A stretch of 64,000 nucleotides of DNA from Liolophura sinensis. Its lineage: Eukaryota. Under the pieces are notes generated by a model that saw only the letters and a list, made by a program, of their open reading frames with translations, was not told the origin of the DNA and did not search any database. Both the position numbers and the translations under genes were made by a program. The stretch is taken from the NCBI RefSeq assembly GCF_032854445.1, contig NC_088295.1:28756498-28820497 (forward strand), given 5' to 3'. Of the stretch, positions 4,752-23,099 are shown piece by piece. Each line of letters begins with the position of its first letter. Positions within the stretch are counted from its first letter, which is position 1.

Positions 4752-5031
4752 CTTGGCCTCCATGGGCCTCTTGTGACCAAGGTGATTAGCATGCCAGCGT
4801 GGTGCAATAGCCAGGAGCCTCCCACCTATGCGGCTGCTGTGAGGTCAAGTCCAGCTCCAGCCATAAGTGGCCGTACGTGGGAAGGTCTGCCAGCAACCTG
4901 CGGATGGTCGTGGGTTTCCGCCGGCCTCTGCCCGGTTTCCACCCACCATAATGCTGGCCGCCGTCATATAAGTGAAATATTCTTGAGTACAGCGTAAAAC
5001 ACCAATCAAAAAAAAAAAAAAAAAAAAAAAA
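4752..5031 (+). mobile_element. tRNA-derived SINE, near full-length copy with a 30-nt poly-A tail. It lies in UHRF1 intron 1.
   Basis: The head has A-box-like and B-box-like (GTCAAGTCC) motifs. The conserved core is ...ccataatgctggccgccgtcatataagtgaaatattcttgagtacagcgtaaaacaccaatcaaa followed by A30. Confidence 0.8.
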
Positions 5032-5190
5032 ATCCAGCCGCAAGTGGGAAGGTCTTGCAGCAACCTGCAGATTGTTGTGGGTTTCCTACGGGCTCTGTCT
5101 GGTTTCCTCCCGCCATAACGCCTGCTGCCGTCATCTAAGTGAAATATTCTTGAGTATGGGGTAAAACACTAATCAAATAAATAAATATGT
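5032..5190 (+). mobile_element. SINE, 5'-truncated copy with an (AAAT)n tail. It sits in tandem immediately after the previous copy.
   Basis: The sequence is tccagccgcaagtgggaaggtc...gtgaaatattcttgagtatggggtaaaacactaatcaaataaataaat. Confidence 0.75.
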
Positions 5191-5264
5191 TTGGCCTCCG
5201 TCTCAAGCTAAATCCATGGATATGAATATGCCAATAACATGTGTGTGTACATTCTACATTGCAG

Positions 5265-5447
5265 ATGGAAGATGGCCACTCGCTGTTTGACTACAGTGTG
5301 GGTTTGAATGACCTCATCCAGATAATGGTGAGGAACCCCCAGCCTGTAAAGCAAACCTCTGAGGACAAGACAGATGACCCCAAACGTAATAATGGCTACT
5401 CAAGCAGTGGGGAGGAAAGCAACTCTTCTGACAAAGAAAACAAACAG
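5265..5447 (+). CDS. UHRF1: UHRF1 exon 2 (rest of the UBL domain plus a Ser/Asp/Glu-rich linker): MEDGHSLFDYSVGLNDLIQIMVRN...SDKENKQ
   Basis: The acceptor is ttgcAG|ATGGAA and the donor is CAG|GTGAAC. The exon is phase 0 at both ends. It matches vertebrate [24 protein letters not shown]. Confidence 0.85.
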
Positions 5448-5695
5448 GTGAACAGGTTCAAATGACATTGCTTTGATCACTATCACTTTGGTCACTATCA
5501 CTTTGATCACTTCTGTAGTAGTTGATTATAATTGAATGACATGTTGGAGGTGCTTGACTTTTAGTGTTGATTTCTTGTCTTGCTTTCAATTCTGTGTAAC
5601 CCATCTCTGTAGAACTGTAACTTTTCACAGAAAAAAATTGTCTCTGATCCGATGTTGGTTAGTTTGGGTTGCTACATGTGTTGATATGTTTGCAG

Positions 5696-5782
5696 CCTAT
5701 TGAAACAAAACCCTCTACAAGTCAAAATGAAGCCATGGAAACTGACGAGGAGGTGTTGGGGACTGAAGGAAGTTTATTTAAG
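5696..5782 (+). CDS. UHRF1: UHRF1 exon 3 (acidic linker: PIETKPSTSQNEAMETDEEVLGTEGSLFK)
   Basis: The acceptor is tgtttgcAG and the donor is AAG|GTAAAG. It is 29 codons long. ...DEEVLGTEGSLFK corresponds to vertebrate ...DETELGLYK. Confidence 0.8.
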
Positions 5783-8482
5783 GTAAAGTGAGATTTCTGT
5801 CATTGTGACTTGTGGCAGGGCAGGTCTTTATTTTCGTAATTCTTTACCAGAATCTAAAGGGATTCCCGTAGGGTTGCTTTGCGGGAATCCACCCGAATGT
5901 AGGTCAAATCTAGTACCACAAAGAATGCTGTTACTCAAAGTTTTAATATGTGGCATATAAAATCAAACACTTTTGGGGATTCCGGGTGACACAAATATCA
6001 CGATACAGGAGTAGAAATAAGCCCCATAAATCAGAAAGGGGGCAGGGCCAGTTGACTTGGAAATCAATTGGCCCTTTCCCCATTCCCAATAAAGTTTTGA
6101 CAATGTGGGTTGATCTGATGTATATAGTTTATTATTATCTTTGTTCAAAGGATTTCATGATTACTGGTTACTGATGACATTTTTAAGAAGTTCAGGTACT
6201 AGAGGCTTGTAACCAAGAAATCAGCTGTGAATATTGGGTAAGATGTTGGTGGGCAAGACAGCCTCGCATAGACCCTATTAGTAAAATATAAACCATCAGT
6301 TCAGCTACAAAAGTCCTCTGTATCTGATTGACTAGCTGACATTTGAAATAGATTTGCTACACAGCTGTGACATTTGACAGTAGCATACCACAATAAAATC
6401 TTACGTTCAGTTCTGAAACTCCAGTGTAGATACGATCAAATTTACAAGCAAACTATTGTTCCGATTTATGTCGCTTTCATTGTTTCATGGCCGTTTAATT
6501 CATTTGCTACCACAATGTCCCAAGGCCCCCGCTACTGCAATCCTGTTCACCGCTTGGTCCCCAGCAGGCCACAGCAGAAATACAATTTTGCACTAAAAAT
6601 TCGAATTTTTTGTTTTATTTTTTTCTGGATAATTCAGTGATCAGCTTTTCGGTGGCAGTTGGTATTTTTGCTCGCTGTTGTGTGTAAACATAAAATTAAT
6701 GGCTTTATTAGAACTGTGTATCTCGCGATTTTAGTAAACTTGCAATAAAAAACGGTGTCAGAGCTTGAAAATTGGTTGTTTCCGTAGGTGGCGTTACAGT
6801 TTCCGATTGTTCAGATTCGCATCTCGTTAATTCTGGAGCGTAGTTGACCTAAAGTTAATTCCTTTCCACTTGGTTGGAAGACTCTTCTATGTCACTGCTA
6901 ACATCTGAAACCGAAATATCCGAATCGAAATCCTCCCAAATGTCTTCATTCGTAAAGCCCTCGAAATCGTCGTCTGTACTTGAGTCCGCCATTTTGGCAA
7001 AAACTCATAGAAAGGCGTCAGATCTTTTCCACATTTTTTCGCGCCATTTTATCGCTTGCAACCAATGAAAATCTGCGAACACAGCTTGTGTGGCTTCCAT
7101 AGGATCTCATAAAGCTCCCCAAAAATCCGAATTTCCGTGCAAAATTAGACCAGTCAGAGGTAGTGTATTACGCGTCTTGAGCCACTTGCCGGGAAATAAG
7201 GTCTTGTGAAATGTGCGGCTTGAGCCGCACACGGGGACCAAGGGGTATGGCTAGGCTGCAGCTAACGGCGCTCCCAGTGGCAAAAGAGTTAATAGCCAAC
7301 AAAGTATTTTTACAAAAATGTCTTCACACACCCCTTTTCATAGCTATATGTTCATTACTTTGCAATCTTCTCATTAGTTTTGGATATGTGTCAGTTTTAA
7401 TTGTCCGAATTGTCCGATGGTCAGAACCACTACCACTGCTGTAGCTATCAAACGGCCATTGCCTTGTTGTACACAGGTGGCATTTCAACAATTTAGAAGC
7501 TCATTCATTGGTCCACAGGAGAGACACAGCCAGTGGGATAGCCTGTATCATAGTAGCATTCACTAGAAACCAGCACGTTGTCTATTTTTTTTCACTTTTA
7601 CCTGCGTGCCAAAGATGGATCAAACTAAAGACTAATGAACTTCCTCTTTGTTTACCCACCATGCCTTATTTCATCAGAGTTTGTGTACACATTTAAAGCC
7701 CTTATTTTCCCTCCCTGCTGTAAAAATGTAGCTTGGCCCGCCAGACTTTCTTATCCCATCTCTTACCCACCACGTCAAAGTTTTCACAATCAGCGAGCCA
7801 GCAGTTATTTTGACCCTTGCTGTAATTCATTACATGTCAGTTTATGCTAAAGAATTCGCTTGCAATGGAAAATTACAAATTTGTTCACAGTTTATTTTGA
7901 TCTCCGTTCGTCAGTATAGACACGCATTATGACGATGTTAATGGTTGTACGTCCTCTTATTGAGAGTAGGGATAGTTATGAATTGGAAATTGGAGAACAG
8001 TTGGTCATTTTCAGAATCATTTTTGTGACTTTCTTATTTGGTTTATGGGAGTCATGGAATCCGATTCCTAGATTCCTAGATTCCTGTCGAAAGTAAAGCC
8101 CTGCAGGCTTAAGCGTCATCTGAATATTAGAGAAGTAATGGTTGTATTGTTTTTTTAACACCTCAAACCCTTTTGGTTATAGGCATATGTATCTGTCTGC
8201 TCCATTGGCTACTGATAATTTGGAACAAATTCCTCAATGGTGTATCGTTTATTCTTATATGAATGGAAAGCGTGTTGAAAATTATTTTGTGGATGTAAGA
8301 GGATATTTTATTGAGTTATGCTCCTTTATTCAATTGTCTGATTTTGTCCTGCTTTATTTCACTACCAGCCAACTGGATTACACCAAGTTCTGTGATGTTG
8401 GAACTCTTGTAAGATGAGCCAGAGTGTCCAGGGGTTTTGGTTAGCGCAATATTGTGTTATCTGTTTGCATTCTTTTCACTAG

Positions 8483-9021
8483 ATTGGAGATATTGTGGAT
8501 GCTCGTGACGTTACCATGGGAGCATGGTTTGAAGCGAAGATCATGAAAATCAGACGGGCGGAACCTGATGATGATTGTGAAGAACCTCTGGCCACACCGT
8601 TAGAAAGTTGGGACGATGAAAATGTGCCAAAGTTATCTGAAACAGACAACAATGTTACAAAGAGCGAAACAGAAAACAATGTGAAAACAGAAGAGCAAAA
8701 GACCTCTGCTTCAGAAATTGAAACAGAGGAGAACTCCAAACAGGGAGACAACCCTACAAGAAGTGATATTACTGACAAAGTCACAGAAAATTCAGAATCC
8801 AAACCAGCTGATTCAGACAAATCCAACCCAGACGAAGTTAAAAAGGAAAACCTAGATGAATCAAACAATAACAATGTAGATGAATCAGATAAAGTGCAGC
8901 AAGAGTTGGAGAATGTGTTGAAAGAAACAGTGGTTGTTAAATCTGACATTACATCTACAAAACCTGCCATACATGTGTGTGATACAAATGATGGCTTTGT
9001 CTATTCTGTGCAGTATGAAGG
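8483..9021 (+). CDS. UHRF1: UHRF1 exon 4 (first Tudor domain of the tandem Tudor, with a long acidic low-complexity insertion)
   Basis: The acceptor is cactAG|ATTGGA and the donor is GG|GTAAGT. It is 539 nt long and ends in phase 2. IGDIVDARDVTMGAWFEAKIMKIRR matches vertebrate [25 protein letters not shown], and FVYSVQYEG matches VIYHVKYDD. This exon is listed in the six-frame track as ORF 8495-9025. Confidence 0.85.
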
Positions 9022-9744
9022 GTAAGTAAAGCAGAGTGGGTACATTTTTCATTCTTTATATTTTTTTACATTGTCGAAAATTGGACTGTAATACTGCAAT
9101 TGTTGAGTTAAACCCCAATCATTCATTCTTTCATTTTCTATAATTCAAAAGTTTGTCTATATTTTGAGTGAATCATTCTGTGGAACAAATTACCAACAAA
9201 TTTTCCTCGCACAACAGGTGCTGCTGCAGTAAATTAGGACTTCAGTGACACGAATCTTAGGCCACATTAAATATGTTGTGTGCTGCAGTTTCATCTATGA
9301 CATATAAGGTCTACTCGCCGTTGTGTGAGACTGTTAAAGCTGCAGTGGAATGTAAAATGTCACTGAAAAGATGTACAGTGAAACCTAACATCTTGACAAT
9401 ACCGACCATACTGCTTGGTTCACTTTTATCTCTATTTTCAACTCGTGTTAAAACTTGTCTATTCTGAAAACTCATAGGGGTTTCCAGCCCACATTATATC
9501 AAGTGCATGTAAATCCACTTTGCACAATGCGGACAACCTGCACAGCTTGTTGCTGGACTTTGTTCACTGCTCACTGGAGAGCTTTTAGCAAAGGGTCATA
9601 GTCCAAATAGCTAGTTCATCAGGCAGTGACAACCGTTCTTTAAAACATAACTTCACATCAGAAAACTTCTTACATTACATAAGGTGTTCGTTCACAGCTG
9701 AGAACAGCAAATCAGGATGTTCGTAACGATTTATTCATTTAATT

Positions 9745-9830
9745 GATTGGTGTTTTATGCCATTCTCAAAAATATTTCACTTATACGACAGAGTCCAGCG
9801 TTATGATGGGAGGATCAGTAATGAATATAT
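9745..9830 (-). mobile_element. SINE 3' fragment (minus orientation)
   Basis: The sequence ttgattggtgttttatgccattctcaaaaatatttcacttatacgacag...ggaggatc is the reverse complement of the SINE 3' core. Confidence 0.55.
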
Positions 9831-9966
9831 ACTGGAGTTTGAATTGACTTTGAACTCAATTCTTCGCTATGAAGAGGACATGTTAGCATGTCAACTGCTG
9901 ATTTTCTGGTTTAATGATCTTTTTACATTTTATTGCTTATAAATATGATTCTATATTTAAATTGAT

Positions 9967-10207
9967 GGCCTCTGTGGCTAGCGTGCCAGTGTGACACAAT
10001 GGCCCAGGAGCCTCTTGTCAATGCAGTCTCTGTGAATTCCCGTCCAGCTCATGCTGGCTTGGCCGGGGGAAGGTCTGACAGTAACCTGCGTATGGTTGTT
10101 GGTATCCCCGAGCCAAGTTTCCTCCCACCGTAATGCTGGCCTCTGTATAAGTCAAATATTCTTGAGTATGGCATAAAACACCAGTCATGTAAAGAAATAA
10201 ATAAACA
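9967..10207 (+). mobile_element. SINE, near full-length copy (UHRF1 intron 4)
   Basis: The sequence runs from ggcctctgtggctagcgtgcc...aatggcccaggagcctcttgtcaatgc through gtcaaatattcttgagtatggcataaaacaccagtcatg to an AAAT-type tail. Confidence 0.75.
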
Positions 10208-10481
10208 TAAAAATGTAATGAAACAAAACACTGTAGTAACTTTTGACTGTAAAGTTATTACATTTTCAGATTTAAGTTTACCATTCATTTAATTCCTGGA
10301 GCGATTTTATGATTGCTGTTGCTGCACAAACCAGCTTCTTGATTTACACAAATTTTACCTTATTACCTAACACTTCGAACTTCAGGCATTTGTTAGGAAC
10401 ATAAAAATGCTGAACAGGGAATGTGCTAAGTTGATTTTTACTACCAAGTTCTAAGAAACTGTTCCTAAACTGCAAGGTGCA

Positions 10482-10699
10482 GGGCCTGTGTGGCAGTATT
10501 GTTTAGTGCGTAGTGGAGCGTAATGACCCAGGAGCCCCTCACCGGTGCGGTTTCTGTGAGTTCTTGTCCAGCTCATGCTGGCTTCCTCTCCAGCTGTACA
10601 TAAGGCCTTCCAGTAACATGTGGATGGTTGTGGGTTTTCCCCTAACATAATGCTGGCTGCTGGCTAAAACACCAGTCAAGTTAATAAAATAAATTAAAC
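10482..10699 (+). mobile_element. SINE, with a tRNA-like head and an internal deletion of part of the 3' core
   Basis: The sequence is gggcctgtgtggcag...gcgtaatgacccaggagcccctcaccggtgcggtttctgtgagttcttgtccagctcatgctggcttcctctcc...aacaccagtcaagttaataaaataaattaaa. Confidence 0.7.
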
Positions 10700-10761
10700 T
10701 GCGAGTTTTAAGAAAGGGTCAAGAATATCTTTATGAGACATCGTTACTTGGTTTGTGGCAG

Positions 10762-10957
10762 ATATGAAGATGATGATTTGACAGACGTCCGAAGCAATCA
10801 CCTGCGACCTCGTGCTAAGACAATGGTAAAGCTGAGCGATGTGGAAATCGGCCAGAAATTGATGGTAAACTATAACTACGATGAGCCGGATCAAAGAGGT
10901 TATTGGTATGACTGCGTGGTCACAGGTAAACGTGATACACGCACCATCAAGGGAGGC
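10762..10957 (+). CDS. UHRF1: UHRF1 exon 5 (second Tudor domain). The 3' boundary is unresolved. The reading frame hits TGA at 10958-10960 with no canonical in-phase donor.
   Basis: The acceptor is ggcAG|A. The translation is (G)YEDDDLTDVRSNHLRPRAKTMVKLSDVEIGQKLMVNYNYDEPDQRGYWYDCVVTGKRDTRTIKGG*. This matches vertebrate [73 protein letters not shown] at 10926 is a donor-like sequence, but it lies inside the conserved coding run and is in the wrong phase for exon 6. Confidence 0.5.
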
Positions 10958-11216
10958 TGACCGGCACGGTTTTTTTAGGGTAGGCTGTAGTGTGTGTTCT
11001 GATGTGTGGAATTTTATAATAGATTAATACAAGCATTAAACATTGATTTCTTAGGTGTTTTAATAGAATGATTTTGCTGATTTTTATTTCCAATCTGGAC
11101 AACCATAAATAATTTCAGGCTGTCTCTCTGAGACAACTCAAACATGTCATAAGTTCAAGTTTAAATTTTAAATTCGTTCAAATTCCATCAAGATGTTTTC
11201 CCACATTAATTTCCAG

Positions 11217-11344
11217 AAAAGATCTGATGCCTCTGGAGAACTGTAAGATACTGTTTGTGTATGAGCTGTTCAAGATTGAGAAGGTTGGAGCGCAGATTAA
11301 CCAGTCTGATATTGACAAGGACCCCAGCGCGTCACCTGTCAAGC
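11217..11344 (+). CDS. UHRF1: UHRF1 exon 6 (end of the tandem Tudor plus linker): (x)KDLMPLENCKILFVYELFKIEKVGAQINQSDIDKDPSASPVK
   Basis: The acceptor is aatttccAG and the donor is C|GTAAGT. It ends in phase 1, which pairs correctly with exon 7. It matches vertebrate [38 protein letters not shown]. Confidence 0.75.
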
Positions 11345-11641
11345 GTAAGTCAGACTGCGAGCAGGTTTGCAGACTAAGATGGTTGTTAACATAAACTCTG
11401 GCTGCAGGATTTGGTGTATTTAGATGTATGCTTTGGTGAATATTTTGTCCTTCATATAGCTGCATTAAATATGAATTTGAGACACATGAAATATTTTATG
11501 TCCAAAAGTCATATGGTGTCAAACATGAGTTATCTCCCCTTATGTTTATGGCCCAGGTCAAAAGTAAATTAGGGAATAATTCTAGATGTTGAGACAAAGT
11601 ATTGGCTGTCAAAATGATGATAATCTGGTCTTATTTTACAG

Positions 11642-11828
11642 GTCAGAACAAGCCTGAGTGTGACCATTGCCTTGACAACCCACGCAGGAAGTGTAAGTTC
11701 TGTGCATGTAACATTTGTGGGGGTAAAGATGACCCTGGGTCACAGATCTTGTGCGACGAGTGTGACATGGCCTACCATCTCCAGTGTCTGGATCCCCCAC
11801 TGGAAAAGATCCCGGAAGAGGATGAGTG
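11642..11828 (+). CDS. UHRF1: UHRF1 exon 7 (PHD finger): [63 protein letters not shown]
   Basis: The acceptor is ttttacAG and the donor is TG|GTATGT. It matches vertebrate [61 protein letters not shown], including all of the PHD Cys/His ligands. Confidence 0.88.
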
Positions 11829-11852
11829 GTATGTGGCTTAAAATGGTTGAAT

Positions 11853-12008
11853 GTGGCCGTACGTGGGAAGGTCATTCAGCGACCTGTGGATGGTCATGGG
11901 TATCCCCCGGGCTCTGCCCGGTTTCCTCCCACCATAATGCTGGCAGCCGTTATATAAGTGAAATATTCTTGAGTATGCCGTAAAACACCAACCAAATAAA
12001 TAAATTAA
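11853..12008 (+). mobile_element. SINE, 5'-truncated. Its 5' end lies 24 bp downstream of the UHRF1 exon 7 donor.
   Basis: The sequence is gtggccgtacgtgggaaggtcattcagcgacctgtggatggtcatgggt...tataagtgaaatattcttgagtatgccgtaaaacaccaaccaaataaataaattaaat. Confidence 0.8.
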
Positions 12009-12813
12009 ATTGTTGACATTCCAGTACACCCTTTCAGTTGTAGAAACCATTAAGTTACTTTGTCCCTGAGAGGGTGAACTGTAAACTGAAAGATTGCAAG
12101 CTACCAAAATGATATCATTATGTCTTATCCAAGCCCTGTCCAAATACTGAATAGCCTTGAAAGAAACATAGACACTCAGTCCTTGAAAGTCCTTGAAAAG
12201 ACTTTTCTTTCAAAAGTTTGGACTTAGGTCTATGAATCTGTTCACCTAGTGAAAACTTTTCAGCCAATAAATGACTTATTTGTTTGAATTTCAAGTTAAA
12301 TGATAGGGTTGTACTTAAATGTCAAGTCATATGGCTTTTGGTTCTGTGAAAGTCTTTAACACTGGCTCTAGATTTTATCCATAATGTTGGAAAGACCGAT
12401 ACCTGTTGGGTGGTGTCATTTAGTGTCTGCGTGAATTTTTCCCCTCATAACAGTAGAAAACCATTGTTTGATGAAGAACTGTGATAGGAATGAGACTTTA
12501 ACCTAAACAGTTTCCTTCAGTTGATGTCTCTCATGTTCAGGTATTAAATTAAACCAGTGGGAAATAGCCAGTGATCTGTGTTTCACTGAGAAGGACTAAT
12601 TGTCTCCCTATCCATTTGCTGATCTCTCTGTTAGAGGGGACACCTTATTTTACCTCTCTTAAAAACTGTACAGGCATTAGTTATTGTAGTTACCCATGCT
12701 TGATAAGTAATAAATTATTGCTGGCAAACCTATCTAAAAAGTTTACCAAGCATATGCATTGATCATGTGTATGAATAAATATAAGGAATATTGGTAATGC
12801 ACATGAATTGCAG

Positions 12814-12937
12814 GTACTGCCCGACGTGTAAGAATGATACCAGTCAAGTGGTTAAGGCCGGAGAAAAACTGAAAGAAAGTAAGAAGAAGTCCAAGATGGC
12901 ATCGGCTACAGCAACCACGAGTAGAGATTGGGGAAAG
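12814..12937 (+). CDS. UHRF1: UHRF1 exon 8 (end of the PHD plus a basic linker): (W)[41 protein letters not shown]
   Basis: The acceptor is aattgcAG and the donor is AAG|GTATGT. It matches vertebrate [41 protein letters not shown]. Confidence 0.88.
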
Positions 12938-13283
12938 GTATGTGGTGAAGGTCGTGACATGACCCTATCATTGAGGAACTCAAGAGCATTAAAATACGTG
13001 CAGTAAGACGACTTTTCGTAATGTGTCCTGATAGAGGAAGAGAACTGAGAAGTAGCATTTTGTTTTGTTTCCAAGGAGAACTCTTATGGACGATTTATGG
13101 GGACGGTCTTGTGTATGCTGTAATATCGAATAATTAGCACTGTCAGCTGAGGTAAGGGGAGATAATCGTGTATTGAACTTTTGCAACAATTGATTTGTGG
13201 CTTGGACAAGGAGTAGTACTTTAAAGTGACATGATTGTTGTTGTGCAAGAAACAGAAAAGTACAGGGTTTACATCCTTTGCAG

Positions 13284-13389
13284 GGTATGGCATGTGTCGG
13301 AAGAACCAAGAGTGTAGAATTGTGCCTCCAAACCATTTTGGTCCTATCCCTGGTGTTGAAGTGGGAACGCAGTGAAGTTCAGAGTACAG
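13284..13389 (+). CDS. UHRF1: UHRF1 exon 9 (start of the SRA/YDG domain). It is 106 nt long (the vertebrate orthologue's 36 residues predict 108) and carries two internal 1-bp frameshifts.
   Basis: The acceptor is cctttgcAG and the donor is CAG|GTGATC. Frame 0 gives GMACVGRTK. Frame +2 gives ECRIVPPNHFGPIPGVEVGT. Frame +1 gives VKFRVQ. Together these rebuild vertebrate [36 protein letters not shown], but only across three reading frames. Confidence 0.7.
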
Positions 13390-13912
13390 GTGATCTATAA
13401 CTGCGGAAGGATTTATAAGCAGAGCTTTGTTGTTTGGTAAACTTGGCTTTGACTCATTTGGAGGCCGAAAAGATCTTCACAGGTCGTGAATTCTGACCTC
13501 AGACTAAGGTGGTAATATCATTTGATGAATCACTCCCACTGTTGAGATCATTCGTTTGAACAAGAGCAGAAAATCTTAATTAATTCAACCCAACTGTTGC
13601 GTTGGGCCCTAAATGCTTATGCATGCTAAATTAATGATGAAACTGGTGTTTCTCTCCATTCATGACTTGCGTTGATTCCTTTCAAAGCCTTATGGCCCTC
13701 AGCTACTGGAAGCAAGAACCAGTGGAGTCAAGTCTAAACACCGATGGGTGCAGGGTTTTGCATGCCTTATGTTGTGCCTTTGTTGAGAAGTTCCAGTGAC
13801 AAGGAAAGGATTTCTAGCATTGTGGGATCTTAAAGGATTTAGAATTTCATGGCTGAAACAGATTGTACTTGTGAGATTGTAAATATGTGACATTTTGACT
13901 GTTTTGTTCCAG

Positions 13913-14017
13913 GCGAGTGAGGCAGGGATTCATCGCCCGCATGTGGCGGGAATACATGGACGTGAGGAAGAAGGGGCGTACTCTATCGTCCTGTCTGGGG
14001 GCTATGAGGATGATGTG
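13913..14017 (+). CDS. UHRF1: UHRF1 exon 10 (SRA): [35 protein letters not shown]
   Basis: The acceptor is ttgttccAG and the donor is GTG|GTAAAT. It matches vertebrate [35 protein letters not shown]. Confidence 0.9.
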
Positions 14018-14505
14018 GTAAATGCAACTTTTCAGATTCAAATTGAAGCATTGATAGTGGTACTGGAAACGAATTTGTTTTATCTAAAGATGACCTGGTG
14101 TTTAAGTTGTTATGTTAAGTCATGGCCATTCGTGCATAAAACCGTCCTAGTGCTAAGTGTAACTATCATGGCAGTGTCATGTATTTACTACTAGTTGCTA
14201 TTTGTATGATTTTATTACTATAAGGGCATCATGAAACTGACCCTTGGCACTTGCAGTGGATTGTTTGGTACGCTGTTTTCTTGAAACACTGTCTTTATGT
14301 CGGACAGTCTTTTGTATTACACAATAATCCAGTTAGTGTTAATGTGGCTAGTGTTATCCGATTCTGCATTGATTCCCAATAAAGTCACAGTTTAGTTTCA
14401 GCTTCAGTTTACACGCTCAGTTACTGTCTTGAAACACTTTATGTGATCGATTATCATTTGTTGAAAGTGTTCAAAGCTGTTATCAAGACAGTTGTTTTTG
14501 TGCAG

Positions 14506-14612
14506 GATCGAGGGGATGAATTTACATACACTGGAAGTGGCGGCCGTGATTTGTCAGGAAATAAGCGAACAGCTGAACAGTCATGTGACCAGAAACTGAC
14601 GCGCATGAACAG
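14506..14612 (+). CDS. UHRF1: UHRF1 exon 11 (SRA): [35 protein letters not shown](R)
   Basis: The acceptor is ttgtgcAG and the donor is AG|GTAATA. It ends in phase 2. It matches vertebrate [36 protein letters not shown]. Confidence 0.9.
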
Positions 14613-14799
14613 GTAATAAATATGTGCACTGGTAAAAATTACTTTACAAGATAATATATATTTATCATTTAAATAAAATTACATTACAAGAACATACAAA
14701 ACATTTCTTTGCAAAGTGAAAAAAAAAGCTGATAATTTTGAAGAAAGTTTACCTTCACATAGAATCAGGCGAAATTTTTCAGCACGCTTTTGTTTACAG

Positions 14800-14962
14800 A
14801 GCGCTAGCGAAAAATTGCAACGCTCCTCTAGATTCAAAAACTGGAACAGAGGCGAAGGACTGGAAGGGGGGTAAACCTGTTCGGGTAGTGCGCAACTGTA
14901 AAGGTCGAAAACACTCCAAGTATGCCCCAGAGGAAGGGAACCGATATGACGGAATATATAAG
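14800..14962 (+). CDS. UHRF1: UHRF1 exon 12 (SRA, with the NRYDGIYK motif): (R)[54 protein letters not shown]
   Basis: The acceptor is tgtttacAG and the donor is AAG|GTGGGT. It matches vertebrate [55 protein letters not shown]. Confidence 0.9.
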
Positions 14963-16624
14963 GTGGGTTTGTTTGGTGAAAATCAAATACCTTTCTAGTG
15001 TGATCATTAACCAAGAAGGAGAACATTACAATTTCCTCATATATGGAGGACCTGGATTCATTTGTGAGAAGATCATTTGTATGATTTGAAAATTTACACT
15101 CTTGTGTACTGTCTCGCAGGTAACAAGGATAGGTAAAATAGATAATCTTCCTCTACCTGCTTTCATAGAAGTGAAATGTTTTTTCTTACTGTGTATAATA
15201 TCAGATAAATTCATCACATCTCTGTAGATGGCTGAAACATGCAGGGCTTCCGCTGGGGCTCGCCATGGTCGCCAGTTGCGAATAAAAATTTGGATTGGCA
15301 ATAAAATCAGGGAAATGGCAAAAGTTTCTGGCGACAAAATTATTTACTCGAGAATATATACTGGCTATTGAGGAGGTGGAAATGGCCACAGTGTGAAGAC
15401 TCACAATGCACATGGCCATGTGTTGTTCTTCTCTTTTTTGACGGAAATAATGGGTTGGTGAACGTCATCACAGTTTCATATAAACCACGTGTGTTTATTT
15501 TATTCACTTTTTTTAAGCAAGCATCACATCCATTTTTTAAAATTATGTAAAAAAAGAAACGGTATCTGAGCTTCTGCTGGTGCTTGCCATTGTCGCAAAT
15601 TTAGAACGATTTTTTGAGATGGCGGTAAAAATCGAAAATATGTTTAATGTTTTTGTTGATGAATTTATTTACAAAGAAAATGTGCTAATGTTATACACAA
15701 AATACCTGGCGAAGTTTTCCTGGTATTTTTCAGGCATGAGAGTTTTCTGTGGTTTTGTGCGTATTCTCGCTATTTTTCTGATGAAAACAATCAATTTACT
15801 TTTATTTCAAACGGCTTCATTTCAGCGGAACAACAACAACAACATAGTCAGGGCGATTTTAATAGACAGAAATCTACAAAGAGGGTTCCGCATTCTTGGA
15901 AGTTGACTTACATTGGATAGCGCTTGAAAATCGTTTTTATTAACTAATGAGCGAGAATCATGGCATTTTTGGGGATGCTATTAAGGGAGATAAATATAGG
16001 TAGTGTTAGGCGTGTAAATGAAGTTACCTCCCTTGAAAACCTTAACCCTTCCACCCATGAACTAAATTTATGAATTTATTTTGTAACAAATATCTCTGGT
16101 AAAGGAAACATTTACTACAACCCTACACAGATTAATTGAAAAAATTTGCTGATTTTTTCAAAAAACAAAAACACTCGGGCATTATTTTGAGGGCATTTTG
16201 TTTTAAATATGGCATGGGATAAACTCCAGGTATAGCTGGAAGACACCAATCTGACTAGCAGCTATACCATGGCAGATAAAAACGAATTACAGATGGAGAC
16301 CACCAAGAGTCCTAACTACTGCTCCCATTCAGTCAATTGAAGATCACAAAGATTACGTCAAGGTCGCTTAGTATGGCTAAAGAAAAATTGTATTGGCTAC
16401 AAAATCTGATGAGTGGCTCAAGTGACTGGCTAAAAAAAATACTTAGACTAAATAGAGGAAACCCTGAACATGTGAAAGAAATACACGTGCATAAGAAAGA
16501 CTCGGGCTTTGTAAACTGGGCTTAGTTCTGATTGGTTTTATTTTGTGTCTGCTCACAATCAGAGTGATTACACAGAGTTGTTGATTTGCTATTTGTAACC
16601 AGTATTTATAACCTTTGTTTGAAG

Positions 16625-16762
16625 ATTGTGAAATACTGGGCAGAGAAAGGAAAATCTGGTTTCCTGGTATGGAGATATCTGCTGAGGAGAGATGACCCTA
16701 GCCCAGCTCCATGGACAAAAGCTGGCAAAATCAGGTCTGCAGAACTAGGTCTGGAAATGCAG
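16625..16762 (+). CDS. UHRF1: UHRF1 exon 13 (SRA C-terminus): [46 protein letters not shown]
   Basis: The acceptor is tttgaAG and the donor is CAG|GTAAAT. It matches vertebrate [46 protein letters not shown]. Confidence 0.9.
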
Positions 16763-17039
16763 GTAAATGCTTGTGGTGTGAAGTGTATTGTTTATGCACG
16801 GAGTTTTTTTTTTTCTGGTTCAGATTGAGTTTATTTATGTTTTAAACACTGACTATAACCAGGTATTGAGTTCAGTTCCGCTTTGGCGACTGGTAATTTT
16901 GTTAACGTGAAGTATGTACTATATACCGATATATATTAGAGAGAAAGTTCAGTTTCATTTGAGGTTCATTTCTGATCATGATTTTATTGTTGGTACACAA
17001 TTATACGTCAGGTATATTACCCTGATATAGATTGTATAA

Positions 17040-17330
17040 TAAAACAGATATTAACCATGGTGATGCATGTTCACTTGTTGGTTGTTATGATAAAGGGAAG
17101 AAAGGAACTAACAAACATTACATCGAAAGTAAACATGTGCAAAATATAGAGATAAGGCTTATCCTGCTCAGAGGTATATAATTAAACAGTTATAAACCAT
17201 GCATGTGAAATTGCTGGTTGTTAAAAATATTTGAAGAAAGGAACTAACAAATATCACATAAAAAATAAACATGTATAGGCCAAGAAACACAGAAGAGAAG
17301 GCTTACTCTGATCAGAGGTACATACTGTAA
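17040..17330. repeat. Tandem duplication of a roughly 140-bp segment (two diverged copies) in UHRF1 intron 13
   Basis: The string gttataaaccatg...gaagaaaggaactaacaaa[c/t]at[t/c]aca...aaacatgt...aggcttaYcctgNtcagaggta recurs at about 17040-17180 and about 17180-17330. Confidence 0.55.
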
Positions 17331-18680
17331 AGTATTTATTATTCGCTGGAATTCATATTCGCGGATTTACTTCAAAGATGGTTTCACAGAAATTAAGTTT
17401 CGTCAAATTAAAAAGGAAATACTGAAAAAAAAAAAAATCTTAAAACTGTTTAATTTCCACAGATATAATACGGTTGAAATTACTCAAGCATGTAAAACAG
17501 GTATTATGAGGTGGCTATGTAATCCACTTTTATTTCTTGTGGTTTTGATAATCCTCGTAATCTGGATCAGAAATTAAAACAACGGGGAATTTATCATCAC
17601 TATTTAAGATGATGACATTTGCACCTACCGTGAGCAGTATTCGAAGCCTAATATGTGTCAGTCATTTGTTTTCGGTTCGGCCTTTCACTGTTGACCTTTA
17701 ATCAACTGGCAAAGTGACCTGTAATCTTTTGAGCAGTTCAACGTAAGACACACAAATTTGCCATTATGGGAGCCAGTCATTCACACAGTCAAGCAAGACG
17801 ATTAGTTTTCGATTGTTTTAATCCTGTGTAGCTAGAAATCGCTAACATTGCGTATTTGTCATAAGGCCATTGTGTTGTATACAGTTCATAACTTGTTAGA
17901 AGCTCACTCATTGGTCCACAGGAGACACTACCAATGGATTATCGTGTACCAGTGCGACATTCTTTGGAAGCCAGCATGTGTTGTATCTACTTTTCTTTCA
18001 CTTTCTTGGCATGCCGAAGATTGATCAGACTAAATACACATGGACTCCCACTTCGTTTTATACCCGCTAAACATTATCACCATAGTTTGAATATATTAAA
18101 AGCCTACTTTTAATTTAATTACAGCCAATACACACGTGGCCACTTTGGCTTGTCACAGATGGCAGCTGTCTGCAATTGATATAGACCTCTCATCGCTACG
18201 CAAATATTTTCGAATGCAATTCAGTTCTTATCTAAAAATTTGAGTATTTGTACCAGAAAAACTCAGAATTGAATTTTTTTTTACCCTAGTTTTCAGTTTT
18301 TAACTGAATTTTCCCTCCGAATACCAGGGTAAAAAATCAACACGTATGAATCCCTCTCATGATACCTCGATGGCATGAAGTGAGTTTATTGTATTTGTTG
18401 TCTTTGTGTACATTCATAGGATAAGAACATTGGTTTCTTTTGTGCAAAGGTCAGTATGTAGGTATAAGGCTATCTCAACTTTACCTGGCGTCATATAATT
18501 GAAATATTGAGTATGGTGAAAAACACCAACCGATCAGATTTCAATTTTCCAGGTGATCTTACTATAACATTTTGAGGAATATCACACTTTTTCTTACTAG
18601 AAAGTGTGATGCTAATCACTGTGTAGTACAGGTCTGTTTTCGTCTTTACTTAACTGATACTGAAATCATTCTTTCTCCAG

Positions 18681-18777
18681 TATCCAGAAGGCTATCTCGA
18701 ATCTCAAAAGGAGAAACAGGAAAACCTGGAAAGTGCTAAGAAGGGGAAAGGAAGGAAGAGAAAATGTTCAGAATCGG
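18681..18777 (+). CDS. UHRF1: UHRF1 exon 14 (linker): YPEGYLESQKEKQENLESAKKGKGRKRKCSES(D)
   Basis: The acceptor is ctttctccAG and the donor is G|GTAATG. It ends in phase 1. YPEGYLE equals vertebrate YPEGYLEA, and it is followed by a basic K/R-rich linker as in vertebrates. Confidence 0.8.
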
Positions 18778-18952
18778 GTAATGTTAAGATTTTACTCTTA
18801 ATTTATAGTGAAAAAAGGCATCGTTGATTCATAATGTAAAATTTGAGGGGAATTTTGGGCAATATGGGTAAATTGCACTAATCAGTTTCAGTCCTATGCC
18901 TTTAAATGGACTTGGTTGCAACTGTTTGAGTGTAGCTCATTCTGATGCAACT

Positions 18953-20428
18953 TACTGGTAGTGACTAGCAAAGAGTAAGGTAGATATTGGAAACTGTGTT
19001 GTCGCACAAACTCTCTGGTAGTGACTGGCAAAGATTAAGGTAGATATTGGAAACTGTTGTTGTCACACAAACTTTCTGGTAGTGACTAGCAAGGAGTAGG
19101 GGAAATATTGGAAACTGTTGTCGCACAAACTCTCTGGTAGTGACTAGCAAAGATTAAGGTAGATATTGGAAACTGTTGTCACACAAACTCTCTGGTAGTG
19201 ACTGGCAAAGAGTAAGGTTGATATTGGAAACTGTGTTGTCACACAAACTCTCTGGTAGTGACTAGCAAAGAGTAAGGTTGATATTGGAAACTGTGTTGTC
19301 ACACAAACTCTGGTAGTGACTAGCAAAGAGTAAGGTATATACTGGAAACCGTGTTTTTGCACAAACTCTCTGGTAGTGACTAGCAAATGGTAAGGTAGAT
19401 ATTAGAAACTGTGTTGTCACACAAACTCTCTGGTAGAGAATAGCACAGAGTAAGGTAGATATTGGAAACTGTGTTGTCACACAAACTTTCTGGTAGTGAC
19501 TAGCAAAGAGTAGGGGAAATATTGGAAACTGTGTTGTCACACAAACTCTGGTAGTGACTAGCAAAGAGTAAGGTATATACTGGAAACCGTGTTTTTGCAC
19601 AAACTCTCTGGTAGTGACTAGCAAATGGTAAGGTAGATATTAGAAACTGTGTTGTCACACAAACTCTCTGGTAGAGAATAGCACAGAGTAAGGTAGATAT
19701 TGGAAACTGTTGTCGCACAAACTCTCTGGTAGTGACTAGCAAATGGTAAGGTAGATATTGGGAACTGTGTTGTCACACAAACTCTCTGGTAGTGACTAGC
19801 AAAGAGTAGGGGAAATATTGGAAACTGTTGTCGCACAAACTCTCTGGTAGTGACTAGCAAAGATTAAGGTAGATATTGGAAACTGTGTTGTCACACAAAC
19901 TCTCTGGTAGTGACTAGCAAAGAGTAAGGTATATACTGGAAACCGTGTTTTTGCACAAACCATCTGGTAGTGACTAGCAAATGGTAAGGTAGATATTGGG
20001 AACTGTGTTGTCACACAAACTCTCTGGTAGTGACTAGCAAAGAGTAAGGTATATACTGGAAACCGTGTTTTTGCACAAACTCTCTGGTAGTGACTAGCAA
20101 ATGGTAAGGTAGATATTGGGAACTGTGTTGTCGCACAAACTCTCTGGTAGAGAATAGCACAGAGTAAGGTAGATATTGGAAACTGTGTTGTCACACAAAC
20201 TTTCTGGTAGTGACTAGCAAAGAGTAAGGTATATATTGGAAACCGTGTTTTTGCACAAACCATCTGGTAGTGACTAGCAAATGGTAAGGTAGATATTGGG
20301 AACTGTGTTGTCGCACAAACTCTCTGGTAGAGAATAGCACAGAGTAAGGTAGATATTGGAAACTTGTCACACAAACTTTCTGGTAGTGACTAGCAAAGAG
20401 TATGGTAGATACTATGTTGTGGCACAAA
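18953..20428. repeat. Minisatellite of about 25 units of about 59 bp (ctggtagtgactagcaaagagtaaggtagatattggaaactgtgttgtcacacaaactct), with a higher-order variant pattern. It lies in UHRF1 intron 14.
   Basis: The tandem periodicity can be read directly from the sequence. Unit variants (gtatatactggaaaccgtgtttttgcac, atggtaaggtagatattagaaact, agagaatagcacagag, gtaggggaaatattgg) recur at spacings of about 120, 180, 238 and 355 bp. It is the source of the nested artefactual minus-strand ORFs at 18965-20427. Confidence 0.9.
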
Positions 20429-20571
20429 CTTTCATAAAATTCTTTTTCTGTCCAATGTCAAAAAGAAAAGCTTCACAACAGTATGGCTGAAATATTGCAG
20501 ACTGGCTCTTGTTGAATTTAGTCTGACTGCCTTTAAATTACCTGATCAGTTGTAATATTCTTTCATAACAG

Positions 20572-20717
20572 ATTCATCCCCTCGAAATTCTCCTGGGAAG
20601 AAAGCTAAAGTTGCGGAGTACAAGGTTTCCAAAGAGGTGAAGAAATTCATTCAGGAGGATAAAATGAACAAGAAGGTTTGGGATGAGGCTCTTGCAGTCA
20701 CAAAAGAAGGAGGAAAG
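20572..20717 (+). CDS. UHRF1: UHRF1 exon 15 (basic linker): (D)SSPRNSPGKKAKVAEYKVSKEVKKFIQEDKMNKKVWDEALAVTKEGGK
   Basis: The acceptor is cataacAG and the donor is AAG|GTAGAA. It starts in phase 1, which matches exon 14. It matches vertebrate [48 protein letters not shown]. Confidence 0.8.
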
Positions 20718-21432
20718 GTAGAAATTCCTAGAATGTAACAATTCATGCTTCACTTATCATTTGTCCATCTTTTCACCTAAATTTTCATACCTGACGTCAG
20801 ATTTGACTTCATTGAGTTAGGTTTTGTACTAGGCTCTAAAACCAGGAAATTGACAGTAAGCTTGACCAGACCTGTCAATCACTTGATTGTAGCCTGAGAA
20901 TTATTTTTCTTGATACCCTTAAAATTACATGCTGCATACTTGTGTGGATGAGGAATTGCAGCCAATAAGATCATTTTACATAGCTTGAGATTTGCATTAT
21001 TGTAAAATATTTATTCCAATTAACCTGGAAAAGGTGAATTTTCGGCATGGAAATTGTCTGGAAATTTGAAAATCATCAACGTGTACAAACCTGATTTAAT
21101 GTCAATTTGGGTATATGGTTGTGTCCCATTGGGCAAACTGCATGGATCTATCACTGATTTTATGTTTGAATACCTTCACTTGCAACCTTCACTAAAATGG
21201 TTGTTATACATTGTAAATCTTTTTTAATCATGGGGTCAGTTCTGTGCTGGAACACATCTTTCTTTCAGTCTGAAACAAATTCAGTCTAGTTTACCTTGAA
21301 ACTGGAGTGTCTTCTTAACATCCTGTCTTGTTAGTGTCTGTGATTGTACATAGCTTATTAGTAGGTGGATCACCAGAATTAACATGGAAATCAATGATTT
21401 GAGCAGGTCTAATCTATTTTCTTGTTGACCAG

Positions 21433-21531
21433 GTGTTCTTGGAGAAGGTGGAGGAGCTATTGCTGTGTATTTGCTGTCAGGAGCTAGTGTATAAACCCGT
21501 CACCACAGACTGTCATCACAATATCTGTCTG
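21433..21531 (+). CDS. UHRF1: UHRF1 exon 16 (N-terminal half of the RING finger): [33 protein letters not shown]
   Basis: The acceptor is ttgaccAG and the donor is CTG|GTGAGT. It matches vertebrate [31 protein letters not shown]. Confidence 0.88.
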
Positions 21532-22392
21532 GTGAGTCAGCAGTGTTGTGATTTGGCAGTTGTTATATTAGTGAAGTATGTGTGAAACTTGGATTTAGTA
21601 TGGGTGGTAAGAGTCAGAATGTTTGAACTTTCCTAGTCATCAGTGTGATATCCTCACCAGAATTTTACACTGTCCATCCTTCCATGAAGTGAAAAAAAAA
21701 AATCAATTTCCACATTGTATTAAAAAGCAAATTTCAGACTTGTGTCCACCTTAATTTGTATGAGATGACTGAGAAAGATGCAGGGAGATGAGTGTACTAA
21801 TACATCAAAGGGAGGTAACTGTGTCACAAGTGGATTATTTGTTGGAGACGTGATAACAAGTCCTGGTTTCATGAAGTGCGCTTAGCTAGGCAATCCAAAT
21901 ACCCTAAATGCTCAAAATCCTTAACAATTTTGACAATGTGACGTGTTGCATGTTTTTGCATATTACAGGCATCTTACCTGATCAGGACAGGTTATTATAT
22001 AATTTCTATGAAGTTCATATATGCCCCTACCTAGACAAAACATTTTAGTCAGCAAAATCTAATGAATTTTGTTTTCATATTGCTTCAAACATTATACTCT
22101 GCTGGTCAGATTGATGATAATTTAGATATCTTGACAACTGCAGTGGCATATGTAGACGCTTGCTTGGCACTCTGTAGTAGGGAATGTCAAGACTTGTATT
22201 GTTGCATGCGGAGAACTACCATGTCAGTGCGTCATGGCTTTCTTTGTAGTTGTCATGGTACTTTATTAGTTAAATGTATGTGCAGGTAACTATGTGCCTC
22301 TGGTTCCAGGGTGTGACTGGGTCAGTTCATAGTGTTGAATTTAGTTCATATTTGGTCAACTGCTCTTCATGTAAGGAAGGTCTGATGAGATA

Positions 22393-22518
22393 TATTTATT
22401 TATTTGATTGGTGTTTTACACAGTACTCAAGAATATTTCACTTATACAATGGCGGCCAGCATTATGGTGGGAGGAAAGTGGTAACCTATGACCATCGGCA
22501 GGTTGCTGGTCTGGCAAG
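22393..22518 (-). mobile_element. SINE, partial (minus orientation). UHRF1 intron 16.
   Basis: The sequence is atttatttatttgattggtgttttacacagtactcaagaatatttcacttatacaatggcggccagcattatggtgggaggaaag... Confidence 0.7.
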
Positions 22519-23075: not shown

Positions 23076-23099
23076 AGATGGTTATGTTTGTCATTGTAG

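What the first reader, a model, noticed from the sequence alone, without database searches (positions are those of the whole stretch)
13284..13389. UHRF1 SRA-domain exon 9 carries two independent 1-bp deletions
The exon is 106 nt long, where 108 are expected. The conserved SRA peptide is recoverable only by reading three frames in succession: GMACVGRTK in frame 0, then ECRIVPPNHFGPIPGVEVGT in frame +2, then VKFRVQ in frame +1. Both shifts sit at positions where a GG dinucleotide would be expected from the vertebrate codons (AAG-GAG read as AAGAG; TGG-AAG read as TGAAG). This is the signature of homopolymer indel errors in long-read assemblies. The alternative is a very recent inactivation of an otherwise intact gene. 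If the locus is a true pseudogene, that is remarkable, because every other exon keeps perfect splice sites and conservation. If these are assembly errors, they matter for anyone annotating this locus.
Basis: partly seen in the sequence, partly recalled or inferred. Interest (0 to 1): 0.8.

Follow-up and report, generated by a model that had tools for sequence, protein, structure and literature searches.

The report
Frameshifted UHRF1 exons, probably assembly errors
A perfectly conserved DNA-methylation maintenance gene (UHRF1) of a marine-invertebrate-like genome is broken by small base gains and losses at three sites within 2.4 kb; these are most likely local sequencing or assembly errors, not a dying gene.

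Summary
The exon at 13284-13389 is 106 nt, and its SRA peptide can only be read across three frames. All 120 homologues have a fixed 36-codon exon, and the Lingula exon is 108 nt with the same splice phases.

- The gene is not from a vertebrate. The best matches are molluscs and a brachiopod, at 70-76% identity.
- Only the second missing base is certain: the G of the invariant Trp codon at 13374^13375. The first is undetermined.
- The other exons are not all clean. Exon 5 has a third lesion at 10952-10956 (GGAGG where GAG is expected, +2 nt). It creates a stop at 10958-10960, upstream of exon 9.

Otherwise the gene looks fully functional:
- There are 17 exons, all with AG/GT splice sites.
- The repaired 908-aa protein has all five UHRF1 domains.
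- It matches 130/130 invariant columns and 264/265 columns conserved at 95% or more.

About 5 kb of other checkable sequence shows no indel: the remaining UHRF1 CDS, a neighbouring HSP70 gene and a 17-copy tandem array. All lesions fall within 2.4 kb. Strong CpG depletion (o/e 0.41) implies a methylating lineage.

The best explanation is a local patch of poor consensus or polishing (about 0.7). A very young pseudogene or null allele remains possible (about 0.2). No same-species data were reachable, so reads are needed to decide.

The parts
2918..23246 (+). UHRF1 orthologue, 17 coding exons: E1 2918-3070, E2 5265-5447, E3 5696-5782, E4 8483-9021, E5 10762-10979, E6 11217-11344, E7 11642-11828, E8 12814-12937, E9 13284-13389, E10 13913-14017, E11 14506-14612, E12 14800-14962, E13 16625-16762, E14 18681-18777, E15 20572-20717, E16 21433-21531, E17 23100-23246.
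   Evidence: tblastn with UHRF1 proteins. Exon model with all acceptors AG and all donors GT. The repaired 908-aa product has the ubiquitin-like, TTD, PHD, SAD_SRA and RING domains.
13284..13389 (+). Coding exon 9 (start of the SRA domain): 106 nt where 108 are expected. This is the finding.
   Evidence: The stretch has a fixed length in 120/120 homologues. The Lingula exon is 108 nt with the same phases; 83/108 nt are identical, and the differences fall 2/4/17 by codon position in the repaired frame.
13310..13313 (+). First 1-nt deficit: AAG|AG|TGT, where a full codon is expected between Lys and Cys.
   Evidence: Frame change between GMACVGRTK and ECRIVPP. The identity of the missing base is undetermined, because this residue varies in homologues (E/Q/V/M/I).
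13373..13375 (+). Second 1-nt deficit: TG^AAG, where TGG AAG (Trp-Lys) is expected.
   Evidence: Trp is invariant in 120/120 homologues. Frame change between ...VGTQ and KFRVQ.
10762..10979 (+). Coding exon 5 (tandem tudor domain): 218 nt, carrying a third frame-breaking lesion near its 3' end.
   Evidence: Frame 2 reads ...GKRDTRTIKGG*. Frame 1 continues LTGTVFLG, followed by a canonical donor AGG|gtaggc at the intron position shared with Lingula.
10952..10956 (+). Lesion 3: GGAGG (5 nt) where one codon (GAG, Glu) is expected, a net +2 nt. It could be two single extra G's or a 2-nt insertion.
   Evidence: The stretch GKRDTRTIK-E-LTGTVFLGKDLMPLENC is 27 residues in 114/120 homologues and never 28. 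Sequence read.
10958..10960 (+). Premature in-frame TGA created by lesion 3. As assembled, the gene encodes a 386-aa product with the ubiquitin-like domain and most of the TTD, but no PHD, SRA or RING.
12814..12937 (+). Exon 8, ending in phase 0 (..SRDWGK|gtatgt). Together with exon 10 it fixes the expected phase of exon 9.
13913..14017 (+). Exon 10, starting in phase 0 (ag|GCG AGT = [13 protein letters not shown]). Skipping exon 9 would keep the frame.
1..975 (-). Internal control: the 5' part of an HSP70/HSC70 gene, head-to-head with UHRF1. It starts at about 975 and runs off the window start, uninterrupted for more than 310 codons.
   Evidence: Pfam HSP70 model positions 1-306 are matched in one stretch.
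29461..30635 (.). Internal control: a tandem array of 69 nt x 17 copies, perfectly in register with no indel. Its few variants sit at four columns of the unit, two of them at the unit's CpG (C>T or G>A), and most are shared by neighbouring copies.

Best explanation
This is the genuine, functional UHRF1 orthologue of a lophotrochozoan-type invertebrate. In this assembly its sequence carries a local cluster of small insertion/deletion errors in the consensus: +2 nt at 10952-10956, -1 nt at 13310^13313 and -1 nt at 13374^13375.

The likely mechanism is a stretch of at least 2.4 kb (10.95-13.38 kb) that was built from, or left polished by, too few or too noisy reads. Examples are an unpolished long-read patch, a filled gap, or a highly heterozygous stretch where short-read polishing failed. 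In such a stretch the lengths of short purine (G) runs can be miscalled.

Shown here: the lesions, their positions, the intactness of everything else, the lack of relaxed constraint, and the local clustering.

Inferred: that the lesions are absent from the animal's DNA.
For: 1. No sign of decay. After the three sites are repaired, the 908-aa product matches 130/130 invariant columns and 264/265 columns conserved at 95% or more across 120 orthologues. Functional orthologues show a median of 1 deviation. All 32 splice dinucleotides are canonical. All five domains score well above the Pfam cut-offs except the RING finger, which is found below it. The SRA region aligns end to end with solved human UHRF1.

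2. A neutral-mutation simulation asked how often at most 1 conserved residue is hit and no stop arises. The probability is 0.27 for 9 substitutions, 0.14 for 12 and 0.008 for 24. From general knowledge, real neutral sequence usually accumulates several to many substitutions per indel. Three or four indels with none of that collateral damage is therefore unexpected for a pseudogene.

3. Within exon 9, nucleotide differences from Lingula fall 2/4/17 on codon positions 1/2/3 of the repaired frame, across all three segments. The exon evolved as coding sequence until essentially now.

4. CpG o/e is 0.41 across 64 kb, with GpC at 1.05 and a TpG/CpA excess. The lineage therefore methylates CpG in the germline. 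Animals with DNMT1-dependent methylation keep UHRF1, and DNMT1 and UHRF1 are lost together (PMC10538959).

5. All lesions change the length of short G/purine runs. All lie within 2.4 kb of genome (about 570 coding nt). About 5 kb of other checkable sequence has none: the rest of the CDS, HSP70, and the 69-nt and 31-nt arrays. This fits a local quality problem.

6. Frameshifts that turn good genes into apparent pseudogenes are a documented failure of long-read assemblies (PMC10359078; PMC12007338).
Against: - No reads, transcript or second assembly of the species could be found, so the inference is indirect.
- The rest of the window looks very accurate: a 1.2-kb tandem array has zero indels. 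If the assembly is high-accuracy (HiFi-type) throughout, three or four errors in 570 coding nt would be very unlikely.
- The affected runs are only 1-3 bases long, which is not the long homopolymers where such errors are typical.
- If the indel:substitution ratio of this lineage is high (about 1:3), the constraint test is weak (P about 0.27).
- The lesions sum to zero (+2 -1 -1; the unrepaired CDS of 2727 nt is a multiple of 3). I cannot explain this, though it has a 1-in-3 chance expectation.
Confidence: 0.7

Rival explanations
1. The lesions are real. This is a very recently inactivated UHRF1. It could be a young duplicate whose functional twin lies elsewhere in the genome, a unitary pseudogene in a lineage just starting to lose maintenance methylation, or a null haplotype carried by the sequenced individual. 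Translation would stop at 10958-10960, giving a 386-aa protein without PHD, SRA and RING, and the mRNA would probably be degraded.
For: - Three independent frame-breaking lesions are present in the sequence as given.
- Elsewhere the window shows no indel noise, which would fit a high-accuracy assembly.
- UHRF1 is lost together with DNMT1 in several animal lineages.
- A few animals among the hits carry two UHRF1 entries, for example Oedothorax and Phyllobates.
Against: - There is no substitution at any of 130 invariant residues and only one conservative change (F837L) at 265 highly conserved ones. There are no nonsense codons and no damaged splice sites. The probability is 0.008-0.27, depending on the assumed substitutions per indel.
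- Three or four indels clustered in 2.4 kb is as unexpected for neutral decay as for uniform error.
- The strong CpG depletion argues that the maintenance machinery is in use.
- The locus is complete, with its upstream region and a neighbouring HSP70 gene, so it does not look like a fragmentary duplicate.
- No second copy is present in the window.
Confidence: 0.2
2. The gene is expressed despite the lesions, through alternative splicing. Exon 9 would be skipped, which keeps the frame because exons 8 and 10 are both phase 0. An alternative junction would bypass the exon 5 lesion. The product would be a UHRF1 isoform.
For: Skipping exon 9 is frame-neutral.
Against: - Exon 9 encodes 36 residues at the start of the SRA domain. 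They have a fixed length and are nearly invariant in 120/120 homologues and are part of the solved SRA fold.
- No in-frame alternative donor exists upstream of the TGA in exon 5. The ACAG|GTAAAC donor at about 10922 and a GC donor at 10955/10956 both give a wrong frame or a stop when joined to exon 6 (my reading).
- No alternative copy of either exon lies in the introns.
Confidence: 0.03
3. Programmed recoding: ribosomal frameshifting or insertional/deletional RNA editing restores the frame at the three sites.
For: The net length change is zero, so a reader that corrected each site would produce the full protein.
Against: - No slippery heptamer or long homopolymer is present at any site (sequence).
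- Three sites would need two different kinds of correction (-2 and +1).
- From general knowledge, no such editing is known for animal nuclear mRNAs.
- The uncorrected frames run into stops at once.
Confidence: 0.01

Closest known systems
Human/mouse UHRF1 (ICBP90/Np95), e.g. PDB 9lpk, 2zkd, 3clz (SRA domain)
   Same: The domain order is the same: ubiquitin-like, tandem tudor, PHD, SRA, RING. The repaired SRA region aligns without gaps to human residues 395-613 (411 bits). Motifs such as GNKRTAEQS and YTGSGGRD are retained.
   Different: Identity is only about 56-62% over the whole protein. About 170 extra acidic residues are inserted inside the tandem tudor domain (exon 4), as in Lingula and several molluscs. 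As assembled, the reading frame is broken at three sites.
Lingula anatina UHRF1 locus (LFEI02000078.1, protein P0002)
   Same: Intron positions and phases are the same around exons 3/4, 5/6 and 8/9/10. The homologous SRA exon is exactly 108 nt. Identity is about 73% over conserved columns.
   Different: The Lingula gene is uninterrupted. The window's gene has +2, -1 and -1 lesions. The species is not Lingula and is equally distant from molluscs.
Artificial frameshifts ('false pseudogenes') in long-read genome assemblies (ILRA, PMC10359078; Kastor, PMC12007338)
   Same: Single-base gains and losses in nucleotide runs split otherwise intact, conserved genes.
   Different: The published examples concern mostly long homopolymer tracts and occur assembly-wide. 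Here the runs are 1-3 nt, and the errors, if that is what they are, are confined to a 2.4-kb patch in an otherwise clean window.
Lineage-specific loss of the DNMT1-UHRF1 pair (e.g. some braconid wasps; PMC10538959)
   Same: If real, this would be a UHRF1 inactivation event.
   Different: Known losses leave no recognisable intact gene and go with loss of CpG methylation. Here the gene is perfectly conserved and the genome is strongly CpG-depleted.

Membership tests
UHRF1 orthologue | Domain architecture: ubiquitin-like, tandem tudor, PHD, SRA, RING. | tested here: met
   On the repaired translation, Pfam gives PF00240 (48 bits), PF12148 (162), PF00628 (46) and PF02182 (179). A RING-type finger is found below its cut-off (22 bits). 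Full-length orthologues hit at E=0.
UHRF1 orthologue | Conserved residues of the family are retained. | tested here: met
   130/130 invariant columns and 264/265 columns conserved at 95% or more. Gap-free alignment to the solved human SRA.
UHRF1 orthologue | Uninterrupted reading frame encoding the full protein. | tested here: not met
   As assembled, the frame breaks at 10952-10956, with a stop at 10958-10960. Two further shifts lie in exon 9.
UHRF1 orthologue | Orthologous gene structure (shared intron positions and phases). | tested here: met
   Compared with the Lingula locus L001.
Assembly/consensus indel artefact | The lesion is absent from raw reads or from an independent sequence of the same species. 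| not testable with these tools
   No same-species protein, contig or metagenome match was found.
Assembly/consensus indel artefact | Lesions are length changes of nucleotide runs, with no accompanying substitutions at constrained sites. | tested here: met
   The second exon-9 site is TGG>TG. The exon-5 site is GGAGG for GAG. The first exon-9 site is compatible with this but undetermined. There is no excess of changes at conserved residues.
Assembly/consensus indel artefact | Comparable indel noise in other checkable sequence of the same assembly. | tested here: not met
   The HSP70 CDS, the other 14 fully intact UHRF1 exons and two tandem arrays show no indel. A local, not a general, problem has to be assumed.
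Unprocessed (duplicated or unitary) pseudogene | Frame-disrupting mutations. | tested here: met
   Three sites, provided the sequence is correct.
Unprocessed (duplicated or unitary) pseudogene | Relaxed constraint: replacements at conserved residues, nonsense codons, damaged splice sites. | tested here: not met
Processed pseudogene | Lack of introns, a poly-A tail, a new genomic location. | tested here: not met
   Sixteen introns are retained at orthologous positions.
Programmed ribosomal frameshift / RNA editing site | Slippery sequence or editing motif at the shift site, and an open alternative frame up to it. | tested here: not met
   No slippery heptamer or long run is present at 10952, 13311 or 13374. 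The stop follows immediately after the first shift.

The most novel reading that the evidence does not exclude
The three lesions are real, and this is UHRF1 caught within a very short time of its inactivation. The genome's CpG depletion shows that it has been heavily methylated. Either the lineage is at the very start of losing DNMT1-UHRF1 maintenance methylation, or a freshly duplicated UHRF1 copy is decaying.
Probability: 0.15. Interest if true: 0.55.

Novelty: not a real feature. Interest (0 to 1): 0.15.

Why it matters
If these are errors, the matter is practical. Automatic annotation of this locus will truncate UHRF1 at 386 aa, skip exon 9, or call a pseudogene. A survey of methylation machinery could then wrongly score this species as lacking UHRF1. 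The cluster also marks 10.95-13.4 kb as a stretch of the assembly that needs re-polishing.

If the lesions were real, this would be a rare snapshot of an essential epigenetic maintenance gene at the moment of loss, in a genome that still bears the mutational footprint of heavy CpG methylation. That would be of interest for how DNA methylation systems are lost.

Tried and rejected
1. Looked for same-species sequence to settle the question.
- Three protein searches were run: full length, exons 8-10 (112 aa) and exons 4-12 (447 aa). They gave at best 71-76% identity over long alignments, and 89% over one short piece. The search seems to return only targets of roughly 0.6-1.75 times the query length, which is why three sizes were used.
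- Four exact look-ups of window ORFs next to the lesions found nothing.
- Two exact-pattern scans of metagenome contigs, written to match either the broken or the repaired version of each site, found nothing.

2. Suspected a nonsense codon at the exon 4 acceptor (..LHSFH*IGD against Lingula MHSTYKVGD). Rejected: Lingula has an intron at exactly that point. The missing ...SLFK exon was found at 5696-5782 with good splice sites.

3. First read FPTLISRKDLM upstream of exon 6 as coding, together with a CCATCAAG repeat as a possible target-site duplication. Rejected: the real continuation, LTGTVFLG plus a canonical donor, lies directly after the exon 5 lesion.

4. Looked for a second, intact copy of exon 9 or of the end of exon 5 in the introns (mutually exclusive exons). 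None was found.

5. Tried to use interspersed SINE-like copies to measure indel noise. The copies are 75-88% alike, too diverged to be useful.

6. Screened six-frame ORFs of 23-64 kb by eye for other genes to use as controls. Nothing convincing turned up. Rfam found no RNA gene.

7. Considered exon skipping, alternative donors, programmed frameshifting and RNA editing. All were rejected (see the rival explanations).

Full report
**What is at the coordinates.** The window carries a complete UHRF1 orthologue on the + strand, from the ATG at 2918 to the stop at 23244-23246. It was located with tblastn and resolved into 17 coding exons, whose 16 introns all have AG acceptors and GT donors. The flagged interval 13284-13389 is coding exon 9. 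It is 106 nt long and lies between ...cctttgcag| and |gtgatcta. Its translation follows the SRA peptide only when three frames are read in turn:
- GMACVGRTK (13284-13310);
- ECRIVPPNHFGPIPGVEVGTQ (to 13372);
- (W)KFRVQ (13375-13389).

Exon 8 ends in phase 0 (..DWGK|gtatgt) and exon 10 begins in phase 0 (ag|GCG AGT..), so a multiple of three is required. The stretch DWGK...ASEAG has exactly 45 residues in all 120 homologues examined. The homologous exon of Lingula anatina is 108 nt with the same boundaries.

**Corrections to the observation.**
1. The organism is not a vertebrate. The best full-length matches are Lingula and molluscs at 67-71%, Ostrea and Pomacea at 74-76% over the central part, and vertebrates at 55-58%. 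Over 667 well-aligned columns the gene is about equally distant (70-73.5%) from brachiopod, bivalve, gastropod and cephalopod orthologues.
2. Only the second missing base can be identified. Trp is invariant, so TG^AAG at 13374^13375 lacks the G of TGG. At the first site (AAG|AG|TGT, 13310-13313) the residue varies among homologues (E, Q, V, M, I). The missing base could be the G of GAG, the C of CAG, an A, or the T of ATG.
3. The statement that every other exon is perfect is wrong. In exon 5 (10762-10979, tandem tudor domain) the frame reads ...GKRDTRTIK GG TGA. The next frame continues LTGTVFLG and ends at a canonical donor AGG|gtaggc, at the intron position shared with Lingula. Between AAG (Lys) and CTG (Leu) there are five bases, GGAGG (10952-10956), where homologues have a single residue, usually Glu. 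The surrounding stretch is 27 residues in 114/120 homologues and never 28, so the lesion is best read as +2 nt. It creates a stop at 10958-10960. As assembled, the gene would therefore give a 386-aa product without PHD, SRA or RING, and exon 9 is not the first lesion.

The three lesions sum to zero: the unrepaired CDS is 2727 nt. The sequence between them is nevertheless full of stops in the shifted frame and conserved in the original frame, so this is not a compensated frameshift.

**State of the rest of the gene.** I removed two G's in exon 5 and added one base at each exon 9 site. This gives a 908-aa protein with no internal stop.
- It contains ubiquitin-like, TTD, PHD and SAD_SRA domains well above the Pfam cut-offs, plus a RING finger.
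- Its SRA region aligns without a gap to human UHRF1 residues 395-613 in solved structures.
- Against 120 orthologues it agrees at 130 of 130 invariant columns and at 264 of 265 columns conserved at 95% or more. The exception is F837L. Functional orthologues tested in the same leave-one-out way have a median of 1 deviation.
- In exon 9 the 23 nucleotide differences from Lingula fall 2, 4 and 17 on codon positions 1, 2 and 3 of the repaired frame.

Apart from the three small length changes, nothing suggests relaxed selection.

**How much decay should accompany real indels.** I simulated random substitutions on the repaired CDS. I asked how often at most one of the 264 conserved residues changes and no stop arises. 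The probability is 0.27 for 9 substitutions, 0.14 for 12, 0.067 for 15 and 0.008 for 24. From general knowledge, neutral animal DNA accumulates several to tens of substitutions per indel. Three or four fixed indels with no collateral damage is therefore unlikely for a pseudogene, though not impossible if the lineage has a high indel rate.

**Quality of the surrounding sequence.**
- On the - strand, from about 975 to the window start, lies the 5' part of an HSP70/HSC70 gene. It is uninterrupted for more than 310 codons and matches Pfam HSP70 positions 1-306 in one piece.
- A tandem array at 29461-30635 has 17 units of 69 nt in perfect register. Its few variants sit at four columns of the unit, two of them at the unit's CpG, and most are shared by neighbouring copies. 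This is the look of real mutations, not of noise.
- A 31-nt array (33514-34330) also shows 0% indels.
- Together with the remaining UHRF1 exons, about 5 kb of checkable sequence has no indel. All three or four events lie in about 570 coding nt between 10952 and 13375.

With a uniform rate, such clustering has a probability of roughly 0.03 (three events) to 0.004 (four events). This is my own estimate, 3 x 0.1^2 and 4 x 0.1^3. Whatever caused the lesions acted locally.

**Genomic context.** CpG o/e is 0.41 over the whole window and 0.48 in the UHRF1 gene body. It is 0.80 in the 1.9-kb region between the divergent HSP70 and UHRF1 starts. GpC is 1.05, and TpG/CpA are in excess. This is the footprint of long-standing germline CpG methylation. 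In animals, maintenance of 5mC uses DNMT1 with UHRF1, and the two are retained or lost together (PMC10538959). A species with this footprint is expected to need UHRF1.

**Interpretation.** The best-supported explanation (about 0.7) is a local patch of poor consensus in the assembly. Possible causes are an unpolished long-read stretch, a filled gap, or a heterozygous stretch where short-read polishing failed, so that the lengths of short G/purine runs were miscalled. False frameshifts that make good genes look like pseudogenes are a documented property of long-read assemblies (PMC10359078; PMC12007338).

Several points weigh against this reading. The affected runs are very short, the rest of the window is clean, and I have no reads.

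The main rival (about 0.2) is that the lesions are real: a very young duplicate or unitary pseudogene, or a null haplotype. The following argue against it:
- the absence of any other damage;
- the clustering;
- the completeness of the locus;
- the methylation footprint.

Splicing around the lesions and programmed recoding were examined and are very unlikely. Exon 9 skipping is frame-neutral but removes 36 near-invariant SRA residues. No in-frame alternative donor exists for exon 5. There are no slippery sites.

**What could not be done.** No sequence of the same or a closely related species was reachable.
- Three protein searches of different query length gave at most 76% identity over long alignments.
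- Four exact ORF look-ups failed.
- Two exact-pattern scans of metagenome contigs, written to accept either the broken or the repaired version, failed.

The decisive test remains mapping reads or cDNA to 10,940-10,965 and 13,300-13,380.

**Verdict.** As biology it is most likely not a real feature, so interest is low. The residual possibility of a genuine, extremely recent UHRF1 inactivation (about 0.15) would be moderately interesting.

Noticed in passing
window 10952-10960 (exon 5, 10762-10979): A third frame-breaking lesion in the same UHRF1 gene: GGAGG where GAG is expected (+2 nt). It is followed by a premature TGA, upstream of the flagged exon.
   Followed up: yes
window 1-975, - strand: The 5' part of an HSP70/HSC70-type gene ([32 protein letters not shown]...). 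It is arranged head-to-head with UHRF1 and runs off the window start. The 1.9-kb region between the two starts has a higher CpG o/e (0.80) than the rest of the window (0.41), as expected for an unmethylated bidirectional promoter.
   Followed up: partly
window, whole (e.g. 23247-64000: CpG o/e 0.35): CpG depletion is very strong and nearly uniform, with a TpG/CpA excess, in both genic and non-genic sequence. This is more like global methylation than the mosaic pattern usual for invertebrates.
   Followed up: partly
window 4811-5184, 9998-10642, 11855-12003, 22396-22509, 24825-24957, 45008-45686, 59100-59650, 61654-61809, 63227-63399: Many copies of a SINE-like interspersed repeat, 75-88% alike. 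One strand translates as ..DWCFTPYSRIFHLYDGGQHYGGRKPGRARGKPTTIRRLL.DLPTYG.. and the other as ..GLCPVSTHHNAGRRHISEIFLSTA... Several copies lie in UHRF1 introns.
   Followed up: partly
window 29461-30635: A tandem array of a 69-nt unit, 17 copies, 99% identical, with no indels. Two of its four variant columns lie at the unit's CpG, and most variants occur in blocks of adjacent copies.
   Followed up: yes
window 18955-20411 (intron 14 of UHRF1) and 33514-34330: Two further minisatellites. One has a 60-nt unit x 24.5 copies (86% matches). The other has a 31-nt unit x 26 copies (92% matches).
   Followed up: no
window 8483-9021 (exon 4): About 170 acidic, low-complexity residues are inserted within the tandem tudor domain. 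Lingula and several molluscs have a comparable insertion at the same place; vertebrate UHRF1 does not.
   Followed up: partly
window about 8000-50000: A persistent positive GC skew (G>C, often 0.1-0.18) on the + strand. It extends well beyond the 3' end of UHRF1 into sequence where no gene was recognised.
   Followed up: no
whole CDS (2918-23246): The three lesions sum to zero (+2 -1 -1), so the unrepaired CDS of 2727 nt is a multiple of three. This has a 1-in-3 chance expectation, and no mechanism was found.
   Followed up: partly
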